Assembly: GCA_964513425.1 (NCBI GenBank)
Contig: CAZEME010000001.1
Span: forward strand, 3,062-67,061
Length of the DNA: 64,000 bases
Direction of reading: 5' to 3'
Source of the DNA: an uncultured Candidatus Saccharimonas sp.
GTDB taxonomy: Bacteria > Patescibacteriota > Saccharimonadia > Saccharimonadales > Saccharimonadaceae
Every line of letters begins with the position of its first letter. Within the stretch, counting starts at the first letter, position 1. Both the position numbers and the translations under genes were made by a program. The notes under the pieces were generated by a model. It searched no databases, was not told where the DNA came from, and saw nothing but the letters and a program-made list of their open reading frames with translations. Below are positions 5,115 through 43,842 of the stretch, piece by piece.

Positions 5115-5569
5115 TACAATTTGATCTTCCCATTGGCAGCTGCGCCAATACCTACAATATTCCCAACTTCTGCCTTAACTAAGCTATCAATAGAAACTTT
5201 TGAAGTAAAGTTAAAATTAAATAATGATTTTATAGCCTTTTGAGGTTCTTCGCCTTGTTCAATTCCTTCTATCACATCTATGCCATTCGCTGTTAAATGC
5301 AAGCCGAGTAACAACAGACCGCCCATAATTTCTTTATTATTCTTTTTTGCGATAAGACCTTTTTCTAGCAAATAATTGAAGGCATTATATAACAAGATAT
5401 CATCTTTACTTATTGAATGCAGGATATCTTTAAGCCACGACTGCGTATCAACTTTCATATTTGATACTGCAGCAAATACTATGCCAGTTTGTCCCAACTT
5501 AGTAGGATCATCTAGCTGTATAACATATAGAGATAAGAGGATTTTGCCAGCTGTTTGCTTTACGCTCAT
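5114..5569 (-). CDS. hypothetical protein embedded between hsdM and hsdS (possible winged-helix fold)
   Basis: 151-aa ORF. Its start overlaps the hsdM stop by 4 nt and its stop overlaps the hsdS start by 1 nt. The segment LYNAFNYLLEKGLIAKK...GLHLTANGIDVIEGIE resembles wHTH recognition-helix and wing regions. I recognise no catalytic motif. Confidence 0.6.
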   Translation of the reverse strand: MSVKQTAGKILLSLYVIQLDDPTKLGQTGIVFAAVSNMKVDTQSWLKDILHSISKDDILLYNAFNYLLEKGLIAKKNNKEIMGGLLLLGLHLTANGIDVIEGIEQGEEPQKAIKSLFNFNFTSKVSIDSLVKAEVGNIVGIGAAANGKIKL

Positions 5570-7137
5570 TTTTTATCCTCTATTTCAGCAACAATCGCAT
5601 CAATCTGAGTACGAAGTTCACTCTGTCTCTTAACAATATTTGCTATGTTTGCATTCAGCTCCGTAATATCAGTGGCGACTGTCATATCAAGCTCGTCAAT
5701 ATAACTACTAACTGCAATATTATAATCATTTTTACTAATTTCATCGTTTGTCACTAATCTAGCAAAATGATCAATGTCTCGACGACTAATAAATGCCTCT
5801 AATATTTTATCTTGATTGACTTGACTGAGCTTATTCTTATTGCCGCCACGAACAAATTCAGCCGATGCATTAATAAATAAAGTTGAGTTGTCTTTTTTGC
5901 TCTTTTTCAAGACTACAATACACGTTGAGATAGTCGTCCCAAAGAATAAGTCAGGCGGTAATTGAATAACTGCATCAACAAAGTTGTTGTCTATTAAGTA
6001 CTTACGAATTTTCGCTTCTGCACCGCCACGATACAGCACTCCAGGGAATTCAACAATTGCAGCAATTCCGCTGGTTGATAACCAACTTAGAATATGCATT
6101 GTAAATGCTAGATCGGCTTTACTCTTTGGGGCTAGTACACCTGCAGGACTGAACCGAGGATCATTTATTAATAATGGATTTGCGTCGCCTTCCCAATTAA
6201 TCGAATATGGTGGATTTGAAACAATTGCATCAAATGGTTCATCGTCCCAATGTTGTGGGTCAATTAATGTATCACCATGAGCTATGTTAAACTTCTCATA
6301 ATTAATGTCATGCAAAAACATATTTATACGTGCAAGGTTGTAGGTTGTTAAGTTAATTTCTTGACCGAAAAATCCTTGACGAACATTATCTTTTCCAAGC
6401 ACTTTAGCAAACTTTAACAGTAAAGATCCTGAGCCACACGCAGGGTCATATACCTTATTAACCTGCGTCTTGCCAACAACTGTAATACGAGCGAGTAATT
6501 CGCTTACTTCTTGTGGGGTAAAGAATTCACCACCAGATTTTCCTGCACTACTGGCATACATACCCATCAAATACTCATACGTATCACCGAAAGCATCAAT
6601 TGTATTGTCTGTGTAATTACCAAGTTTCAAATCACCAATTACGTCCATTAATTTAACAAGTCGCTCGTTACGTTTTGCAACTGTTTGTCCTAGCTTGTTG
6701 CTATTAACATCTAAATCATCAAATAATCCCTTAATATCGTCTTCACTGTCTGCGCCTTTTGCAGAACCTTCAATATTTCGGAATACTCCAGATAAAACTT
6801 CATTCAAATTTTCTTCACTTTTTGCTCGTTTGCGAACATTTTCAAAAAGTTCACTTGGTAATATATAAAAGCCTTTTTCCTTAACGGTATCGTCACGACC
6901 AAATTCTGCAGCATCATCACTAAGGTTTTTATAATCAAAATCTCTAGGTGTGTTTGAATCTTTCAATTCTTCTGAATTGATATAGTTTGTTAGATTTTCC
7001 GAAATGAACCTATAGAATAGTATCCCTAAAACGTATTGTTTAAAATCCCAACCGTCTACAGACCCTCGCAGATCATTTGCAATTTTCCAAATAGTACTGT
7101 GTAGATGCGTACGCTCTTGCTCTTTTTTATTATCCAT
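5566..7137 (-). CDS. hsdM: Type I R-M N6-adenine DNA methyltransferase subunit
   Basis: It has the AdoMet motif VYDPACGSGSLL, the catalytic motif SNPPYS and an N-terminal HsdM_N-like region (IWKIANDLRG). The ORF is open to 7203. ATG at 7137 is preferred because a TATAAT box (7147-7152) lies inside the extension. Confidence 0.93.
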   Translation of the reverse strand: MDNKKEQERTHLHSTIWKIANDLRGSVDGWDFKQYVLGILFYRFISENLTNYINSEELKDSNTPRDFDYKNLSDDAAEFGRDDTVKEKGFYILPSELFENVRKRAKSEENLNEVLSGVFRNIEGSAKGADSEDDIKGLFDDLDVNSNKLGQTVAKRNERLVKLMDVIGDLKLGNYTDNTIDAFGDTYEYLMGMYASSAGKSGGEFFTPQEVSELLARITVVGKTQVNKVYDPACGSGSLLLKFAKVLGKDNVRQGFFGQEINLTTYNLARINMFLHDINYEKFNIAHGDTLIDPQHWDDEPFDAIVSNPPYSINWEGDANPLLINDPRFSPAGVLAPKSKADLAFTMHILSWLSTSGIAAIVEFPGVLYRGGAEAKIRKYLIDNNFVDAVIQLPPDLFFGTTISTCIVVLKKSKKDNSTLFINASAEFVRGGNKNKLSQVNQDKILEAFISRRDIDHFARLVTNDEISKNDYNIAVSSYIDELDMTVATDITELNANIANIVKRQSELRTQIDAIVAEIEDKK

Positions 7138-7225
7138 ATATAAAGTATTATAACCTAAAAATAGGTATAAATCAGCCATGAAATTACTAGACTTTACTGA
7201 CAATTGGCGATAATGTTGTCCTATA

Positions 7226-8488
7226 ATGAAAACAGATTTAACAGATATAAAATATTGCCTGTATGCTCGAAAATCGAGCGAGCAAGATGAACGTCAAGCA
7301 ATGAGCATTGACTCACAAATCAAAGAAATGACCAACATGGCGAACCGTGAGGGGCTACAAGTCACAGAAGTCAAGCAAGAGAGTCATTCGGCCAAACAAT
7401 CTGGGCAAAGGCCTGTCTTTAGCGAATTGCTGACAGATTTACGGAATGATAAATTTCAGGGCATATTAACTTGGGCGCCCGACCGGCTATCACGAAACGC
7501 TGGCGATTTGGGATCATTAGTGGACTTAATGGATTCTAATAAATTACTGCATATTCGAACATTTGGGCAAAGTTTCAGTAATACACCGAATGAAAAGTTT
7601 CTGTTAATGATTTTGTGTTCGCAAGCCAAACTCGAAAACGACAATCGAGGTGTAAATGTAAAACGAGGAATCCGTGCTAAATGTGAAATGGGATGGCGAC
7701 CATGTATGCCTCCGCTTGGATACTTTACTCGAGCTGCAACTGGTGGCGCCCGGGATGTTATTGTTGACGAAGAACGAGCACCATATATTAAAAAGATGTT
7801 CGAGATGTCTGCAAATGGTAAAGGTGGCAGACATATTAAGCAATGGCTAATGGACAATAATGTAAAATCTAGAGGCGGAAAGAATATACCACTTAGTATG
7901 ATTTACAGGATGTTAAATAGTCCATTTTATTATGGCGAGTTTGAATATCCTTCAGGATCGGGCAAATGGTATAAAGGCAATCATCAACCGATAATCGATA
8001 AAGACTTATTCTTGAAAGTCAAAGAACAGTTAAAGGTTCCAATAAAATCTAAATGGGGCTCAAAAGAATTTCCCTTCAGGAACTTTCTGAAATGTTATAG
8101 TTGTGGTGCTTCAATTGTTGGCGAAGAACATACTCGGCATTATGCGAATGGTCGAAATCCTCGATTTGCTTATTATCATTGTTCGCGCCAAGTCGATCAT
8201 GATTGCAAAGAACCATACATATCTGAAAAAGGCATTGTTGAAGAATTGTGTAGCATGCGAAATGAATTAATCACAGATTTACGAGAAGTTGAGCCAGGTT
8301 TGCGTGATGCAATCGAGAAATTTACTAAAATGATTAGTGTTACCGACGAAGATTATAGCAAACAAGAAATGATCGGCGGATATATTAAATACGTATTGCA
8401 TGAAGGGAGTTTGTTTGAGAAAACAAGACTAATTCGAAATATAAATATTAATCTTATGCTGCACAATAAAATACTAATTAAACTATAA
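7226..8488 (+). CDS. large serine recombinase (resolvase/invertase N-domain, recombinase domain and zinc ribbon)
   Basis: 420 aa. The N-terminal YARKSSEQDERQAMSIDSQ is a serine-recombinase catalytic region. GWRPCMPPLGY...ERAPYIKKMF is recombinase-domain-like. The Cys cluster is CYSCGAS...YYHCSRQVDHDC. It is divergent from hsdM. Confidence 0.88.
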   Translation: MKTDLTDIKYCLYARKSSEQDERQAMSIDSQIKEMTNMANREGLQVTEVKQESHSAKQSGQRPVFSELLTDLRNDKFQGILTWAPDRLSRNAGDLGSLVDLMDSNKLLHIRTFGQSFSNTPNEKFLLMILCSQAKLENDNRGVNVKRGIRAKCEMGWRPCMPPLGYFTRAATGGARDVIVDEERAPYIKKMFEMSANGKGGRHIKQWLMDNNVKSRGGKNIPLSMIYRMLNSPFYYGEFEYPSGSGKWYKGNHQPIIDKDLFLKVKEQLKVPIKSKWGSKEFPFRNFLKCYSCGASIVGEEHTRHYANGRNPRFAYYHCSRQVDHDCKEPYISEKGIVEELCSMRNELITDLREVEPGLRDAIEKFTKMISVTDEDYSKQEMIGGYIKYVLHEGSLFEKTRLIRNININLMLHNKILIKL

Positions 8489-8497
8489 TCATATGAT

Positions 8498-9898
8498 ATG
8501 GACAATAATCAAAAAGAAGATAACCAACTTAGCCAAAGAAATATATTAAAAGAATGCTTCACATTATTTGGTAACTCCTATTATGATTCTTTTATCCCTG
8601 GGATAACTGACCTTGTAAAACTTTCCAGGGACCGTCAATATTATAAGAATCCGGCAAAACATTTTGGCCTACAAATAGGGTTAATGGATGCTATTATAAA
8701 GATGGACGAAACCGTTTCCTTAGGCAAACAAGAAGCAAGAAAAAATAACAATAGCGAAGATATAATAATTCAACGAAGACGCAATAGAGTAATTTCATTA
8801 GCATATCGACAAATTTGTGATGGAATTGCTTGGCGCAGTGTTGGCTATTCAAGATTTTATATTCGCATAATGTCTCAGGCACGATCACCTGGATCTGCTC
8901 ATGGAAAAGAAATTGGTCGAAAAAAAGAGATGATTTATGCAACAAATGTCGTACGTAATGGAAGCTATGTTTTAATACACGATGCAACAAATATACTTAG
9001 GGTTGGCGACCTGAGCGCACTAAAAAACATACCTGGAGTACCTTATCTGTCAGAGATAAAAAATAAGAAAGGTATTGCTACACCAAAAGACATAGACGAA
9101 AGATTAGAAAATGGCACATCTACAACTAAACAGGAAGATAGATTATGGCAGGCACAAATAATGCTTAGTTCTAAGAAATGGTATATGAAAGATGTGATTA
9201 TACCTGTTACAAGATTAGTGGCCAAGAAGAAGGATTTCTTAGTAAGTGCCGGCGCTGTCTTGAAACAAGCTGTGAATAAAGGCGTTTACGGAAAAATGTT
9301 AAGCAATTATATGTACATGGAGGCATTTGATATACGTAAAATACTAAATAGTTTTAGTGATACTATATCTTTTCAAAAACTATTAAATACTCTGCCAAGC
9401 CCTCAAAAAGAATTACTTTCAATTCATTCAAACTATGATACCATTGAGGCTCTTTTAGATAATGAGGTGATGCGTTCCGTCCCGCCATACACTATATTCC
9501 CTTTCTCAGCTGAAGTGGTGGCTAAGCTTATTACTGGGCAGCTTGTTTTTAGGACTATGATCTTAAAAAAAGAATTAGAAAATGAATTTCTAAAGTTTGG
9601 CTATGAGTTGATTATTGATGAAAAAGCGCTTGAAGAAGTATCCCAAGACGAAGATAGTGTGGTCTTTTTGTCCAGTAGAGTGCTATTTCCAGATAAAGAT
9701 CCTGACTCGTTTGTGCATATTAGGCACAATAATAGTGGCTTTATGTACCCTATGCAAATGTTCTTTGCTACGATTGCATATGAATTTTTAAGTGTTGAAT
9801 ATATTATTTCGATAGCTGAAGCTGTAAGGGCGACAGCAAAACCAGGCGAAGTAGGAATGTTTTACCCAGAAATAGAAGACAGCTATCGCTGGCTATAA
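8498..9898 (+). CDS. hypothetical protein with a PD-(D/E)xK-like nuclease motif
   Basis: 466-aa ORF starting 9 nt after the recombinase stop. The candidate motif is VLIHD..LRVGD171L-x14-E186-I-K188. I recognise no other family. Confidence 0.55.
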   Translation: MDNNQKEDNQLSQRNILKECFTLFGNSYYDSFIPGITDLVKLSRDRQYYKNPAKHFGLQIGLMDAIIKMDETVSLGKQEARKNNNSEDIIIQRRRNRVISLAYRQICDGIAWRSVGYSRFYIRIMSQARSPGSAHGKEIGRKKEMIYATNVVRNGSYVLIHDATNILRVGDLSALKNIPGVPYLSEIKNKKGIATPKDIDERLENGTSTTKQEDRLWQAQIMLSSKKWYMKDVIIPVTRLVAKKKDFLVSAGAVLKQAVNKGVYGKMLSNYMYMEAFDIRKILNSFSDTISFQKLLNTLPSPQKELLSIHSNYDTIEALLDNEVMRSVPPYTIFPFSAEVVAKLITGQLVFRTMILKKELENEFLKFGYELIIDEKALEEVSQDEDSVVFLSSRVLFPDKDPDSFVHIRHNNSGFMYPMQMFFATIAYEFLSVEYIISIAEAVRATAKPGEVGMFYPEIEDSYRWL

Positions 9899-9972
9899 TA
9901 CATAATATTAATCATGGATTGATTAGCTATGAAAACGTATTATTGAATTTTCTTATGAACTACAAGAAAAAA

Positions 9973-9994
9973 CCGACCCAAAAGGTCGGTTTTT
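9973..9994. terminator. intrinsic terminator hairpin
   Basis: ccgacc-caaaa-ggtcgg followed by ttttt and preceded by an A-run. It lies between the 466-aa ORF and tRNA-Gln. Confidence 0.6.
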
Positions 9995-10066
9995 CTACTT
10001 CCTAGCGTTATGTCCAATAGATTACAAATGTATATTACAACATAAGGTCTTGTTTGATACAATGCT

Positions 10067-10141
10067 TGGCTGGGGATGAGGGATTCGAACCCCCGAATGC
10101 CAGGACCAGAACCTGGTGCCTTACCGCTTGGCCAATCCCCA
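10067..10141 (-). tRNA. tRNA-Gln (anticodon CUG), CCA encoded
   Basis: The reverse complement folds as a cloverleaf. The acceptor is UGGGGAU/AUCCCCA, the anticodon loop is UU-CUG-GU and the T-loop is GGGGGUUCGAAUCCCUC. It is very similar to the E. coli tRNA-Gln scaffold. Confidence 0.93.
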
Positions 10142-20253: not shown

Positions 20254-20544
20254 CTATAAGCCTAGCTTGCCTAATCCACCCATTAGAGGTTTCATTTTTT
20301 CGGCGGCTATCTCTTGAGCTTTAGCTAGACCATCGCGAACAGCGATTTCTAGCCAGTGCTCTAGTTCTTCAATATCTTCTAGGTCAACTCTTTCTGGGTC
20401 AATTTTAAATTTTTTAATTTTTAATTCACCGCTAATTTGAACAATGACGGCGCCATCACCTGCTTCAACTTCTACGATTTCTTTTTTTAGCTCATTTTGG
20501 GCCTTACGCAGGTCATTCATCATTTTGATTTGGTCAAATGCCAT
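20254..20544 (-). CDS. ybaB: YbaB/EbfC nucleoid-associated protein
   Basis: 96 aa in the conserved dnaX-ybaB-recR neighbourhood, with a characteristic M..MMK.aQ N terminus. Confidence 0.85.
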   Translation of the reverse strand: MAFDQIKMMNDLRKAQNELKKEIVEVEAGDGAVIVQISGELKIKKFKIDPERVDLEDIEELEHWLEIAVRDGLAKAQEIAAEKMKPLMGGLGKLGL

Positions 20545-20589
20545 TACTTACTCCTTTTCATTTATTGTTTAGCTAGCTACTATTATACT

Positions 20590-22017
20590 TTAATTAGCGG
20601 TCTTTTTATATAAGTAAAAACGATCACTATTATCTTTAAATGAAGAAGTTATAATGTGATCAATTTTATAGCCAGTATAATTTTTCTTAGCTTGTCTGGT
20701 AGCCCAGAAATAATCAGTTGTGGGCTTGGTCGATATAATAATACTTTTATTATATTTGGTTATTACTTCGAAGAAAGGTTTTTCAGCTTGGCTGACGACA
20801 AGGTATTTTGGGCCATCATTAACTATATTCAGATCACGCGAAAAGCTACTAGCTAATTTTGGCTCATAAGTATAACTATAAATGTGACGATCAAGACCAG
20901 ATAATACTAGGACTGATATTAGAACAGTCAGTGGTATTAGACCACCAATCCGAGCATAAGGGTTCCTAGGAAATAATTTATACCAATAAGACAAGATAAA
21001 ATTTAGACCAGAAGCTAGTAATAGTAATATTGGTAAGAATGTCACACTAGTAAAACTCGGGTTAATGATAATAATCGGTATGATACAGACTATCCAAAAA
21101 ATAATTAAATAGTTCTTTGAGGTAAATCTTTCTTTGTAAACTATTGAGACACCTATAAAGACCATCAACATAGAACTTAGCTCGTAAAAAGGTGTCATTA
21201 AGATTGATTCGCTAGCCTTTGTAAAACTAAAATAGTGTGACCAGAGAGTTTTTAGATTATCCGATATATTAGGTATAACTGATGGTATCCCCAATAACTC
21301 GGATATTAACTTTGGTTGATTAGCTACTAGGAGTATGAGAGGTAGAGATAGCAAAATAGCCATAATAATACCTATTATAAGCTTAGACTTTGGCAGGTTT
21401 TTAACTGTATAGCGCAAGTGAGGATGGAATAGGACAGAGAATATGATGGCTAGGATGACATATAGGCTGAGAGGGGTATAAAGGCTCAAGAAAGCGGTGG
21501 CATAGAAGGCTATGATATAAAGCAATCGGTGCTTTACTTGGCTAACAATCAGACTGGCTAATAGAATTAGCCAAACAGCCCAAAAGATATACATAATGCC
21601 AGGAGTGCCATCCTGAGCAAAGAAGATAAAGCGACTGGTTGAGACAGCTATCAATGAGGCTAAGACTCCGATACTTGGCTTAAACCAGCGCCTAAGCAAT
21701 AGAACTATACCAACAGCTGAGAAAAAAGCTAAAATAGCTGACGGTAATTTGATAGCTAAGAGATTGGCATTAAAGATACTAAGACTAGCTTTCTGGAGAA
21801 GATGGTAAGGTAAGTTGGCTATAGCTAAAGAATCAATATTATTAAAATCGATATTACCACTAGTAATGACAGCTCTAATTTCCTGTTCGGAGATACCACC
21901 CGGGTAATAAAGACAAGATATTAAAAGAACAGTAATTAAGCTAATTGCAAATAATCCATAGCCTAAAATAAAGCGATGTTTATAGATAAATGTTTCATTC
22001 AAACTAAACTTGCCCAT
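20590..22017 (-). CDS. polytopic membrane protein, possibly a GT-C type (PMT/ArnT-like) glycosyltransferase
   Basis: 475 aa with more than 10 predicted TM segments by hydrophobic runs and a soluble C-terminal tail. The family call is weak. Confidence 0.45.
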   Translation of the reverse strand: MGKFSLNETFIYKHRFILGYGLFAISLITVLLISCLYYPGGISEQEIRAVITSGNIDFNNIDSLAIANLPYHLLQKASLSIFNANLLAIKLPSAILAFFSAVGIVLLLRRWFKPSIGVLASLIAVSTSRFIFFAQDGTPGIMYIFWAVWLILLASLIVSQVKHRLLYIIAFYATAFLSLYTPLSLYVILAIIFSVLFHPHLRYTVKNLPKSKLIIGIIMAILLSLPLILLVANQPKLISELLGIPSVIPNISDNLKTLWSHYFSFTKASESILMTPFYELSSMLMVFIGVSIVYKERFTSKNYLIIFWIVCIIPIIIINPSFTSVTFLPILLLLASGLNFILSYWYKLFPRNPYARIGGLIPLTVLISVLVLSGLDRHIYSYTYEPKLASSFSRDLNIVNDGPKYLVVSQAEKPFFEVITKYNKSIIISTKPTTDYFWATRQAKKNYTGYKIDHIITSSFKDNSDRFYLYKKTAN

Positions 22018-42500: not shown

Positions 42501-42995
42501 CTAGCGATAATTATCAAAAACTACCGGAAAGTCAAAATCTTGAGAGTTTATTAGTTTGATTGCCTTCTGTAAATCATCTTTATTATTACCGATAACTCGG
42601 ACTATATCACCTTGAATTTGAGATTTTAATTTAGGCAATTCATCTTTTATAAGTTTAGTGATTTGTTTGGCCTTTAATTGATCTAAACCATTGATAAATG
42701 GTATTTCTTTAGTAGCTTTCATGTTGCTTGTAACAATTTCTTTGCTTAGGTCTAAGACTTTACTTGACTGTTCGCGTGATGCTAGTTTCTTGCGGATAAT
42801 ATCGATAATACTTTCAATCTGCCAATCATTAGCACCTGTAATCTTAAAACCAATCTTGTCACCCAACCATTCAATAAAAGCTGGAGTACCTTTGAAGTCA
42901 TAACGATTAGTTATTTCTTTCTGAACCATTGCCAAGACATTATTCATCTCAGCTTTATCATAACTAGAACTTATATCAAAACTAAATGTGGGCAT
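42501..42995 (-). CDS. yajQ: YajQ family nucleotide-binding protein (UPF0234)
   Basis: 164 aa. MPTFSFDISSSYDKAEMNNV...ITNRYDFKGT is a diagnostic YajQ N terminus. Confidence 0.9.
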   Translation of the reverse strand: MPTFSFDISSSYDKAEMNNVLAMVQKEITNRYDFKGTPAFIEWLGDKIGFKITGANDWQIESIIDIIRKKLASREQSSKVLDLSKEIVTSNMKATKEIPFINGLDQLKAKQITKLIKDELPKLKSQIQGDIVRVIGNNKDDLQKAIKLINSQDFDFPVVFDNYR

Positions 42996-43024
42996 ATTTA
43001 ATTATCTCCTAATAATATTATAGC

Positions 43025-43369
43025 AAAAGAAAAGAGGTCGGACTATTAATCCGACCTCCGGGAGTGTAAATGCATGAGCCATATCCAATCATCGGGCGCT
43101 TTCGCGCGCTGATATGCCCTCGCTTGGGGCGGCTACACACTTTCTTCTACACTTCCCTAGGGCTAAGCCCCAGCCCGACTTTTAGTACGTCTACCTTAGC
43201 CGGGCTAAAAATAGAACTTTGGTCTTGTCATTTTCAAGACAAAACCTCCTCTCAATTTGGGTATACCACTATAAGATCTGACGGGATAACAGGGCATTAC
43301 GCTGATTGCGTTCGCTATATACCTGTTTTACCCTAACCGGTTTCGTTCCGGAAGTCTTACAATAGTACG
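43025..43369 (-). ncRNA. unclassified ~345-nt structured RNA (promoter-to-terminator unit; possibly a divergent housekeeping RNA such as RNase P RNA)
   Basis: A clearly G+C-richer block in AT-rich DNA with no credible ORF. A near-consensus promoter lies upstream and a 9-bp-stem terminator plus U-tract lies at the 3' end. Several internal helices are present, including a GCGC-GAAA-GCGC tetraloop hairpin. Confidence 0.5.
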
Positions 43370-43375
43370 TTTTAT

Positions 43376-43404
43376 ATAATATCACACTGTCATTAATATG
43401 TCAA
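43376..43404 (-). promoter_or_regulatory. near-consensus promoter of the unclassified RNA
   Basis: TTGACA (43404-43399), a 17-nt spacer, then TATTAT (43381-43376) on the minus strand. Confidence 0.55.
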
Positions 43405-43430
43405 TAGTTTAAAGAATAAATAATTAATTT

Positions 43431-43506
43431 TGGAGCCGCGATCGGGAGTCGAACCCGAGACCTCATCCTTACCATGGATGCGCTCTACCAACTGAGCTAT
43501 CACGGC
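43431..43506 (-). tRNA. tRNA-Thr (anticodon GGU), CCA encoded
   Basis: 76-nt cloverleaf GCCGUGA...UCGCGGCUCCA. The anticodon loop is AU-GGU-AA and the T-loop is UUCGACU. Confidence 0.93.
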
Positions 43507-43587
43507 ATACTTAAATAGTTTATCAAAAAAAGATTATTTTTGAAATTAAAATGGCCGGGCGTAGAATTACACCTGGCCAAGTTGTCG

Positions 43588-43842
43588 TTAAAAATTAGAT
43601 CCTGTAACGATTATAGTGGTTATGGCTGCTGTCATAGATAACACCGTCAGAATGTTGGCGAGCGATTTCTCTTTACCCTCACTCTTGTTCGCTATAGATC
43701 GCCACAAAACAGTTATCAATACCCAGATCGCAGCGTTGGTGGCATATAGCCATAAAGAATCATTACCAGCAATCATAAATGATTGCTGTACAAAAGATAG
43801 ACAAACTAAGAAAAGTATCAAACATGCGTATAGCTCTTTCAT
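43588..43842 (-). CDS. hypothetical small membrane protein (84 aa)
   Basis: Three hydrophobic segments, located between tRNA genes. No homology recognised. It could be spurious. Confidence 0.35.
   Translation of the reverse strand: MKELYACLILFLVCLSFVQQSFMIAGNDSLWLYATNAAIWVLITVLWRSIANKSEGKEKSLANILTVLSMTAAITTIIVTGSNF

What the first reader, a model, noticed from the sequence alone, without database searches (positions are those of the whole stretch)
43025..43404. Promoter-to-terminator ~345-nt GC-rich structured RNA that fits none of the housekeeping RNA signatures I can check by eye
On the minus strand, TTGACA-N17-TATTAT (43404-43376) precedes a block far richer in G+C than its AT-rich flanks. 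The block ends in a 9-bp-stem hairpin (gaggtcgga/tccgacctc, 43034-43058) plus a U-tract. The only ORF in it (43070-43336, + strand) translates to low-plausibility sequence. Several helices are visible. GGGUAAAACAGG pairs with CCUGUUAUCCC. AGCCCGGCU pairs with AGUCGGGCU around a 17-nt loop. There is a GCGC-GAAA-GCGC tetraloop hairpin. GGGGC pairs with GCCCC at long range. A 5'-proximal CUUCCGG is complementary to a 3'-proximal CCGGAGG. Size and context (next to tRNA genes) fit RNase P RNA, and a few strings faintly resemble it (AAGACUUCCGG, CAAGACCAAA, CGAUGAUUGGA). However, the canonical GAGGAAAGUCCGGGC and ACAGAACCCGGCUUA P4 strands are not present. There is no tRNA-like 3' end (so not tmRNA) and no GGAAGCAGC SRP motif. 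It is either a highly divergent housekeeping RNA or a new large ncRNA.
Basis: partly seen in the sequence, partly recalled or inferred. Interest (0 to 1): 0.6.

Follow-up and report, generated by a model that had tools for sequence, protein, structure and literature searches.

The report
Strain-specific orphan RNA gene beside tRNA-Thr
A roughly 345-base folded non-coding RNA gene with its own promoter and terminator really is there. It is not a housekeeping RNA but a single-copy insert that only some strains of this one Saccharibacteria species carry, at a recombination hot spot just after a tRNA gene, and its function is unknown.

Summary
On the minus strand, a TTGACA-N17-TATTAT promoter (43404-43376) precedes a G+C-rich, ORF-poor block. 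A 12-bp terminator (43059-43033) ends it. The sense strand folds far better than shuffles (z -7.3).

The housekeeping reading fails. The genome is a 631-kb Saccharibacteria MAG with RNase P RNA and tmRNA on another contig. The whole order lacks Ffh and FtsY, so no SRP RNA is expected. No Rfam family matches.

The new result is that the block is accessory.
- Contigs from other samples encoding the identical YajQ protein (DNA about 99.5% identical) carry the RNA in two cases.
- Two others have an empty site (tRNA-Thr CCA-AAAGGAGAAAAAT-ATG).
- One has an unrelated 250-nt repeat element at the same junction.
- BLAST and two covariance models find no homologue in 61 congeners or 150-400 genomes of the order. 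RNase P RNA, as a control, is found in 57 of 61 congeners.
- Pattern scans of viral, genome and metagenome contigs, and BLAST against phage and plasmid records, also found no copy.

Most likely it is an orphan, horizontally inserted structured RNA gene. Function and covariation are untestable here. The scan has noted other orphan RNAs in Saccharibacteria, but not this one.

The parts
43431..43506 (-). tRNA-Thr(GGT). Its CCA end (43431) is the left boundary of the variable site.
   Evidence: ARAGORN; Rfam tRNA 66.2 bits.
43000..43427 (-). The 428-nt segment present in this genome. Conspecific empty-site strains have only GGAGAA here. It holds the promoter, the RNA, the terminator and a new yajQ promoter and leader.
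   Evidence: Alignment of the filled allele (window, L157, L161) with the empty allele (L158, L159).
43376..43404 (-). Sigma-70-type promoter TTGACA-N17-TATTAT with TG upstream of the -10 box. The predicted start is near 43369.
   Evidence: Prediction only, no transcript data.
43025..43369 (-). Predicted transcript of about 345 nt, from the predicted start to the end of the U-tract.
   Evidence: z -7.3. No plausible ORF on either strand.
43263..43368 (-). Domain 1: a 14-bp closing stem with 4 G-U pairs, enclosing the CCGG hairpin and the GGG/AACAGG...CCUGUU/CCC arm.
   Evidence: pair probabilities 0.73-0.99; model R1.
43159..43246 (-). Domain 2: three hairpins. They are GGUUUUGUC/GACAAGACC, AGCCCGGCU/AGUCGGGCU with an inner GGUA/UACU stem, and GGGGC/GCCCU. 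An unpaired purine-rich linker GAGAGGAGG precedes them.
   Evidence: p 0.93-1.0.
43060..43157 (-). Domain 3: a branched domain closed by GGGA/UCCC and GUGUAGA/UUUACAC. It contains the GCGC-GAAA-GCGC region.
   Evidence: model R2.
43033..43059 (-). Intrinsic terminator hairpin (12 pairs), followed by the U-tract 43032-43025.
43017..43025 (-). Extended -10 box TGCTATAAT for yajQ, supplied by the inserted segment. The SD AGGAG lies at 43006-43010.
   Evidence: congeners have TGnTATAAT at the same place. Inference.
42501..42995 (-). yajQ (DUF520), the right-hand neighbour of the variable site.
   Evidence: Pfam PF04461, E 7.8e-46.

Best explanation
The block is a stand-alone gene for a non-coding RNA of about 345 nt with three folded domains.

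Expression (predicted): it is transcribed from its own near-consensus promoter and stopped by an intrinsic terminator.

Origin (shown): it is accessory DNA. It belongs to a 428-nt segment that sits exactly between the CCA end of tRNA-Thr(GGT) and the ribosome-binding site of yajQ. Only some strains of this Saccharibacteria species have it.

Direction of the event (inferred): the segment was inserted, not deleted elsewhere. The closest species shares the empty junction.

Consequence for yajQ (inferred): the segment cuts yajQ off from the tRNA promoter and supplies a replacement, TGCTATAAT plus a Shine-Dalgarno sequence.

Source (inferred): the site is a recombination hot spot, so the RNA is most likely cargo or a remnant of a small integrative element.

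Mode of action (guess): a structured, protein-binding or architectural RNA rather than an antisense regulator. There is no ORF, no significant complementarity to translation-start regions, and the domains are compact. What it binds is unknown.
For: Gene signals:
- Promoter and terminator in the right order and strand.
- Fold z -7.3 on the sense strand against -4.2 on the antisense strand. 18 of 115 pairs are G-U.
- G+C about 48% against 37% for the genome.
- No credible ORF. The antisense ORF has no relatives.

Accessory nature. Five Logan contigs encode the identical YajQ protein:
- L157 carries the block at 100% identity.
- L161 carries it with one SNP, in the unpaired linker.
- L158 and L159 have tRNA...GGCTCCA-AAAGGAGAAAAAT-ATG with 99.5% identical flanks.
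- L160 has a different 250-nt element at the same junction.
- The left flank of an empty-site sample is 98.7% identical to the window.
- The close congener G047 (78% YajQ identity) has the same empty junction, CCAAAAGGAGGACAT-ATG.

Hot spot:
- G054 has a different RNA of about 215 nt (z -4.2) with the same layout at the same site. It is also an orphan.
- In L167 the syntenic tRNA-Thr(GGT) flank carries a large serine recombinase and nested inverted repeats.
- The window itself holds a large serine recombinase at 7226-8485.

No homologue anywhere. RNase P RNA, as a positive control, is found in 57 of 61 congeners.
Against: - There is no transcript evidence.
- With no homologue there is no covariation, so the fold rests on thermodynamics alone.
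- No terminal repeats, target duplication or recombinase are attached to the block, so the insertion mechanism is unknown.
- One SNP among three copies says nothing about selection.
- A G+C-rich relic with chance promoter and terminator matches cannot be excluded. AT-rich spacers give many promoter-like hits: 17 were found against 6.8 expected.
Confidence: 0.6

Rival explanations
1. The block is a non-functional relic of mobile or foreign DNA left at a recombination hot spot. Its hairpins and G+C content come from its origin. The promoter and terminator are incidental, or serve only to insulate and re-promote yajQ.
For: - It is strain-variable, single-copy and has no homologue.
- The neighbouring allele L160 is a repeated DNA element that also folds very stably, -100.6 and -102.2 kcal/mol on the two strands for 273 nt.
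- Promoter-like hits are common in this AT-rich DNA.
Against: - The fold is clearly asymmetric between strands (-133.4 against -106.5 kcal/mol; 18 G-U pairs), unlike the L160 element.
- The promoter is an 11-of-12 match with an extended -10 box, placed exactly upstream of the folded block. The terminator is placed exactly after it.
Confidence: 0.2
2. The block is a cis-acting leader (riboswitch or attenuator) that controls yajQ by regulated termination at 43033-43059.
For: - It lies directly upstream of yajQ on the same strand.
- The 5'-proximal CUUCCGG could pair with CCGGAGG in the terminator's 5' arm.
- G054 has the same layout.
Against: - An extended -10 box plus a Shine-Dalgarno sequence follow the terminator.
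- Conspecific strains and 60 congeners express yajQ without it.
- No riboswitch family matches even at E<=10.
- The proposed antiterminator arms are 290 nt apart and pair elsewhere in the MFE.
Confidence: 0.07
3. The transcript is an mRNA for one or more very short peptides, for example the 10-codon frame UUG AAA AUG ... UAG that follows the exposed GAGGAGG.
For: - A strong SD-like GAGGAGG lies in the unpaired linker, 7 nt before UUG.
- G054 has GGGGGA followed by a 12-codon frame.
Against: - The two peptides share only MK.
- The start codons lie inside a 9-bp hairpin with p 1.0.
- No ORF of 12 aa or more on the sense strand has an SD.
- About 300 nt of structured RNA would be unexplained.
Confidence: 0.05
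4. It is a highly divergent housekeeping RNA (RNase P, tmRNA, SRP RNA or 6S).
For: - Its size and its position beside tRNA genes fit.
- No SRP RNA or 6S RNA is detected elsewhere in the genome.
Against: - RNase P RNA and tmRNA are found elsewhere with strong scores.
- Ffh and FtsY are absent from 201 genomes of the order.
- The block is absent from conspecific strains and from all congeners.
- It is not a rod with a central bubble.
Confidence: 0.01

Closest known systems
Orphan large structured bacterial ncRNAs (raiA motif, ROOL, GOLLD, OLE; Rfam families)
   Same: - It is a stand-alone, ORF-free, multi-domain RNA of a few hundred nucleotides with unknown function.
- ROOL and GOLLD often lie next to tRNA genes in mobile (prophage) DNA. 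This last point is from my own knowledge, not tested here.
   Different: - No match to any of them, even at E<=10.
- Those families are defined by conservation and covariation across many genomes. This RNA has no homologue at all and is shorter.
Strain-specific sRNA genes carried on islands or prophages integrated at tRNA genes (for example the island-encoded Isr sRNAs of Salmonella; own knowledge)
   Same: - Presence or absence varies among close strains.
- It lies at the 3' flank of a tRNA gene.
- It has its own promoter and terminator, and atypical base composition.
   Different: - The insert is only 428 nt, with no integrase, att repeats or other cargo.
- The RNA is larger and more structured than typical base-pairing sRNAs.
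- No target complementarity beyond chance was found.
Other orphan promoter-to-terminator structured RNAs noted by this scan in Saccharibacteria (e1-3015044, e1-3796633, e1-2045934, e1-4583871; AI notes, unchecked)
   Same: The phylum and the design are the same: consensus promoter, G+C-rich folded block of 365-660 nt, terminator, and no Rfam family.
   Different: - There is no sequence likeness to any earlier window.
- Several of those are reported as conserved with compensatory changes across a clade. This one is confined to some strains of one species.
Miniature repeat elements (MITE-like), such as the 246-255-nt G+C-rich repeat found at the same junction in L160
   Same: It is small, G+C-rich, hairpin-dense and inserted at exactly the same junction.
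   Different: - It is single-copy in its genome.
- It has no terminal inverted repeats beyond an 8-nt AT-rich match.
- Its fold is strand-asymmetric.
- It is unrelated in sequence and by covariance model to that element.

Membership tests
Bacterial RNase P RNA (RF00010 / RF00011) | A match to the covariance model, including the P4 strands, as the only copy in the genome. | tested here: not met
   No hit in the block at E<=10. The genome's RNase P RNA is at C8:12516-12854, 273.8 bits.
tmRNA (RF00023) | tRNA-like ends plus a tag reading frame. | tested here: not met
   ARAGORN and Rfam find none in the block. tmRNA is at C8:15629-16040, 96.5 bits.
SRP RNA (RF00169 / RF01854) | A domain IV motif matching the model, and the partner protein Ffh present. 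| tested here: not met
   - No hit in the own genome or in 31 congeners.
- No Ffh M domain and no SRP54-type GTPase in the own genome, the genus, or 201 genomes of the order.
- No DTAGR motif in any ORF of the own genome.
6S RNA (RF00013) | A rod of about 180 nt with a large central bubble, and conservation in relatives. | tested here: not met
   No hit. The predicted fold has three separate domains. The block is absent from relatives.
Large ornate RNAs (OLE, ROOL, GOLLD, raiA, HEARO) and all other Rfam 15 families | A covariance-model match at or near the gathering score. | tested here: not met
   The best non-tRNA hits in 42900-43550 score 14.6-25.7 bits, against gathering scores of 39.5-120.
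Conserved structured RNA (any new family) | Homologues in other genomes with compensatory base changes. | tested here: not met
   - 0 of 61 congeners (model R1).
- 0 of 150 genomes of the order with model R2, and 0 real hits in 400 genomes of the order.
- None in phage or plasmid records, and no exact-word match in viral, genome or metagenome contigs.
- Control: RNase P RNA is found in 57 of 61 congeners.
Repeat or MITE-like mobile element | Several copies per genome and terminal inverted repeats. | tested here: not met
   One copy only by BLAST and nhmmer. The only terminal match is an 8-nt AT-rich inverted match (by eye).
Strain-variable (accessory) locus at a tRNA integration hot spot | Filled and empty alleles in near-identical strains, and other inserts at the same nucleotide position. 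| tested here: met
   (filled, empty and third alleles). (G054). (recombinase-bearing insert at the syntenic tRNA-Thr in L167).
Expressed RNA gene | A discrete transcript with the predicted ends. | not testable with these tools

The most novel reading that the evidence does not exclude
The site just 3' of tRNA-Thr(GGT) in these Saccharibacteria may receive small (0.25-0.45 kb) self-contained RNA-gene cassettes. Each would carry a promoter, a different highly structured RNA, a terminator and an outward promoter for the downstream gene. Large serine recombinases might mobilise them in trans. The RNAs might serve the element itself or a conflict with phages or hosts. The window's RNA and the unrelated RNA at the same place in G054 would be two members of such a class.
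Probability: 0.12. Interest if true: 0.7.

Novelty: new member of a known kind. Interest (0 to 1): 0.3.

Why it matters
If the RNA is expressed, a genome of only about 0.63 Mb spends a consensus promoter and 345 nt on a folded RNA that sister strains lack. That makes it a candidate accessory function in an ultrasmall bacterium (Saccharibacteria are known as epibiotic parasites, per a paper abstract), and another entry in a growing list of orphan structured RNAs in Saccharibacteria.

The firmer gain is negative. It is not a missing housekeeping RNA.

The locus also documents a precise, repeatedly used insertion point after tRNA-Thr(GGT).

The side observation that the whole order seems to lack the SRP pathway may matter more than the RNA itself.

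Tried and rejected
- **Rfam.** Searched at gathering and at E<=10. Only tRNAs and the L10 leader matched. The weak hits (SNORA72, STnc390 and others) cover the terminator and are chance.
- **SRP RNA idea.** I held it at about 35% early on. I dropped it once Ffh and FtsY proved absent.
- **Homologue searches.**
  - BLAST in 40 relatives, 61 congeners and 400 genomes of the order gave only 19-34-nt chance hits.
  - nhmmer in the own genome and in yajQ loci found nothing.
  - Covariance models of domains 1 and 3 found nothing.
  - Phage and plasmid BLAST found nothing.
  - Exact-word scans of viral, genome and metagenome contigs gave two metagenome hits. Both were 21-23-nt coincidences in G+C-rich coding DNA.
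  - A protein search with the antisense ORF found nothing.
- **Homology with the G054 RNA.** The alignment is unconvincing and local scores are within the shuffle range.
- **Paralogy with other orphan structured regions of the genome.** None found.
- **Trans-target search.** RNAduplex against 434 translation-start regions gave best real energies of -42.2 and -40.7. Shuffled RNAs gave -36 to -47. The first attempt timed out.
- **CsrB-like sponge.** I counted about six GGA motifs by eye, which I estimate is about what chance would give, so I rejected it.
- **GAAA tetraloop receptor.** The UAUGG and CCUAAG halves are not both present (by eye).

Full report
**1. What is in the sequence**

All features below are on the minus strand.
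- tRNA-Thr(GGT) occupies 43506-43431.
- 26 nt after its CCA end lies a promoter, TTGACA-N17-TATTAT (43404-43376). It matches 11 of 12 consensus positions and has TG before the -10 box.
- A block of about 310 nt follows (43368-43060). It is 47.6% G+C. The genome is 37.2% and the neighbouring spacer and yajQ are 32-35%.
- A 12-pair hairpin (43059-43033) and a U-tract close the block.
- Next come TGCTATAAT (43025-43017), AGGAG (43010-43006) and the ATG of yajQ/DUF520 (42995).
- No ORF of 12 aa or more on the RNA-sense strand has a ribosome-binding site.
- The 88-aa antisense ORF has no relative among 5.8 billion proteins.

**2. Is the fold more than chance?**

- The 351-nt sense strand folds at -133.4 kcal/mol. 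Dinucleotide shuffles give -95.4 +/- 5.2, so z is -7.3 and 0 of 100 shuffles fold as well.
- The antisense strand gives -106.5 kcal/mol and z -4.2.
- 18 of the 115 predicted pairs are G-U. The signal therefore belongs to the RNA strand and not to DNA palindromes.
- Pair probabilities define three domains (RNA positions 8-113, 130-217 and 219-316) plus the terminator.
The two long-range pairings are not.
- Nothing beyond thermodynamics supports the structure, because no homologue exists (section 5).

**3. It is not a housekeeping RNA**

- The window is C1:3062-67061 of a 631-kb, 19-contig genome that is 92.5% complete.
- Record titles of the closest yajQ loci name Candidatus Saccharibacteria / Saccharimonadales.
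- RNase P RNA (type A, 273.8 bits) is at C8:12516-12854. tmRNA (96.5 bits) is at C8:15629-16040.
- Rfam 15 gives nothing in the block at gathering score or at E<=10.
- No SRP RNA or 6S RNA is found anywhere in the genome. That first made a divergent SRP RNA attractive.
- No SRP RNA is found in 31 congeners either.
- The genome has no Ffh M domain and no SRP54-type GTPase. None appears in 31 congeners or in 201 genomes of the order, 169 of them high quality.
- No ORF of the own genome carries the DTAGR motif.
- The same searches ring in all 14 control genomes.
- The lineage therefore has no SRP proteins for an SRP RNA to bind.

**4. The block is an accessory insert**

In most congeners, tRNA-Thr(GGT) lies 40-62 nt from yajQ. 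Only a terminator hairpin and TGnTATAAT lie between them.

I looked up the exact YajQ protein in public assemblies. Five Logan contigs encode it:

| Contig | Run | State of the site |
|---|---|---|
| L157 | SRR11845636 | Block present, 100% identical |
| L161 | SRR11845625 | Block present, one C-to-U change in the unpaired linker |
| L158 | SRR8925789 | Empty: ...GGCTCCA-AAAGGAGAAAAAT-ATG, flanks 99.5% identical |
| L159 | SRR8925755 | Empty, same junction |
| L160 | SRR8925817 | An unrelated G+C-rich stretch of about 250 nt, joined at ...GCTCCA-AAAGGAGAAAAAT-ATG |

- The left flank (TPR gene, two tRNAs, a small membrane-protein gene) in an empty-site sample is 98.7% identical to the window. 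These are strains of one species.
- The filled allele has 428 nt (43427-43000) where the empty allele has GGAGAA.
- G047, one of the closest species by YajQ identity (78%), has the same empty junction, CCAAAAGGAGGACAT-ATG. I infer that empty is ancestral and the block was inserted.
- Several assemblies break at or inside the block. This fits mixed alleles within samples.

**5. No relatives anywhere**

| Search | Scope | Result |
|---|---|---|
| BLAST with the 428-nt block | 61 congeners | 0 real hits (one 29-nt hit, E 0.007) |
| BLAST with the 380-nt stretch (promoter through terminator) | 400 genomes of the order | 0 real hits (seven hits of 19-34 nt) |
| Covariance model, domain 1 | 61 congeners | 0 |
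| Covariance model, domain 3 | 150 genomes of the order | 0 |
| nhmmer | own genome | no second copy |
| BLAST | phage and plasmid records | none |
| Exact-word scans | viral, genome, metagenome contigs | only two chance matches |

As a positive control, the genome's own RNase P RNA (339 nt) is found by the same BLAST in 57 of 61 congeners at 70-84% identity. A conserved RNA of this size would have been seen.

**6. The site is a hot spot**

- G054, a congener, has the same layout at the same place. The order is tRNA-Thr, then TTGACA-N17-TATTAT, then a folded RNA of about 215 nt (z -4.2), then a terminator, TGGTATAAT, an SD and yajQ.
  - Its RNA is not alignable with this one.
  - It is also an orphan.
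- The L160 insert is a 246-255-nt repeat. In other Saccharibacteria it occurs as perfect inverted copies around gene pairs.
- In L167, which is syntenic to this window, that repeat lies with a 538-aa large serine recombinase between rpmG and tRNA-Thr(GGT).
- The window itself encodes a large serine recombinase at 7226-8485, 35% identical to the L167 one.
- Neither covariance model matches any of these elements.
- In three other Saccharimonadales, a conserved A-rich sRNA of 130-150 nt with its own promoter follows tRNA-Thr(GGT), ahead of rpmG.

**7. How it probably works**

Shown:
- The signals of an RNA gene are present.
- The fold is strand-specific.
- The block is accessory.
- Its position is exact and the site is used repeatedly.

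Inferred:
- The block arrived by insertion.
- It is transcribed as a stand-alone RNA.
- The segment re-promotes yajQ.

Guessed:
- It acts as a structured or protein-binding RNA.
- A crude duplex scan against 434 translation-start regions gave nothing beyond shuffled controls.
- There is no peptide candidate.

I put 0.6 on a real accessory ncRNA gene on an inserted cassette. The rivals get 0.2 for an inert relic of mobile DNA, 0.07 for a yajQ leader, 0.05 for a micro-peptide mRNA and 0.01 for a housekeeping RNA.

**8. Comparison with what is known, and novelty**

- It behaves like island-borne, strain-specific sRNA genes at tRNA integration sites.
- It looks like the orphan large RNAs (raiA, ROOL, GOLLD, OLE), but it belongs to none of them.
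- It lacks the conservation that defines such families.
- Earlier notes of this scan list several other orphan promoter-to-terminator RNAs in Saccharibacteria. None is alike in sequence.
- I rate it a new member of a known kind, with modest interest.

**9. Limits**

- No covariation test is possible.
- The Logan contigs are short.
- The left junction of the third allele is unseen.

Noticed in passing
whole genome G000 and the order Saccharimonadales: The SRP pathway seems to be missing.
- No SRP54-type GTPase (Ffh or FtsY) at E<=1e-10 in 201 genomes of the order, 169 of them high quality.
- None above chance in 31 congeners.
- No Ffh M domain in the own genome.
- No SRP RNA in 31 congeners.
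- No DTAGR motif in the own ORFs.
- Controls ring in 14 of 14 genomes.
- Three literature searches (with one paper read) turned up no paper stating this.
   Followed up: partly
window 5566-10141: A large serine recombinase (7226-8485, +; Resolvase + Recombinase + Zn ribbon) lies between a type I methylase HsdM (5566-7203, -), an unknown 466-aa ORF (8498-9895) and tRNA-Gln (10067-10141, -). This is probably an integrated element.
   Followed up: partly
L167 2600-6160 (CAZHUZ010000005.1); L169 1086-4449; L160 1-273: A 246-255-nt G+C-rich repeat ends in ...GAAATGCTCCA.
- It occurs as perfect inverted copies around a 404-aa ORF (L167) and around an adenylosuccinate-lyase-HAD plus AAA_28 gene pair (L169, L168).
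- It lies next to a 538-aa serine recombinase at tRNA-Thr(GGT).
- It sits at the tRNA-Thr/yajQ junction of a conspecific strain.
- Evidence: Followed up: partly
window 43588-43842 (-): An 84-aa hydrophobic small protein gene has its own promoter (43914-43886) and terminator, between tRNA-Tyr and tRNA-Thr(GGT). It has no Pfam hit. A conspecific strain has a 79-aa form with a 15-nt in-frame indel.
   Followed up: partly
G000 C4:~20520-20900 (+) (L125 286-670): A tRNA-like unit has an acceptor stem, a T arm GGUUCGAACC and a 3' GCCA, with an internal 17-nt duplication. ARAGORN does not call it. About 270 nt of very stable structure and a terminator follow it. z is -7 to -9.5. There is no Rfam hit.
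   Followed up: partly
G000 C1:~67600-67900 (+), just beyond the window end (L138 240-540): Another promoter-to-terminator structured RNA candidate of about 290 nt lies between rpsJ and tuf, convergent with tuf. z is about -6. There is no Rfam hit.
   Followed up: no
G000 C5:63650-63810 and C6:25170-25330: G+C-rich structured stretches lie downstream of tRNA-Val(TAC) (z -7) and tRNA-Gln(TTG) (z -4). They share the word CGAAGCCTCGA.
   Followed up: no
L148, L154, L155 (other Saccharimonadales): A conserved A-rich sRNA candidate of 130-150 nt, with its own promoter, lies between tRNA-Thr(GGT) and rpmG. It has a hairpin loop CCAAAAGAA, a hairpin CUUCUUGCAAGAAG and a terminator.
   Followed up: partly
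yajQ 5' regions of congeners (L013-L041) against window 42996-43025: yajQ looks leaderless in most congeners, with TGnTATAAT followed 6-7 nt later by ATG. In G000, G047 and G054 it has a Shine-Dalgarno leader.
   Followed up: no
G000 C2:34660-35555: An ORF-poor gap of about 900 nt lies directly upstream of dprA (C2:35550-36170). Earlier notes of the scan report a conserved orphan RNA at this position in other Saccharibacteria.
   Followed up: no
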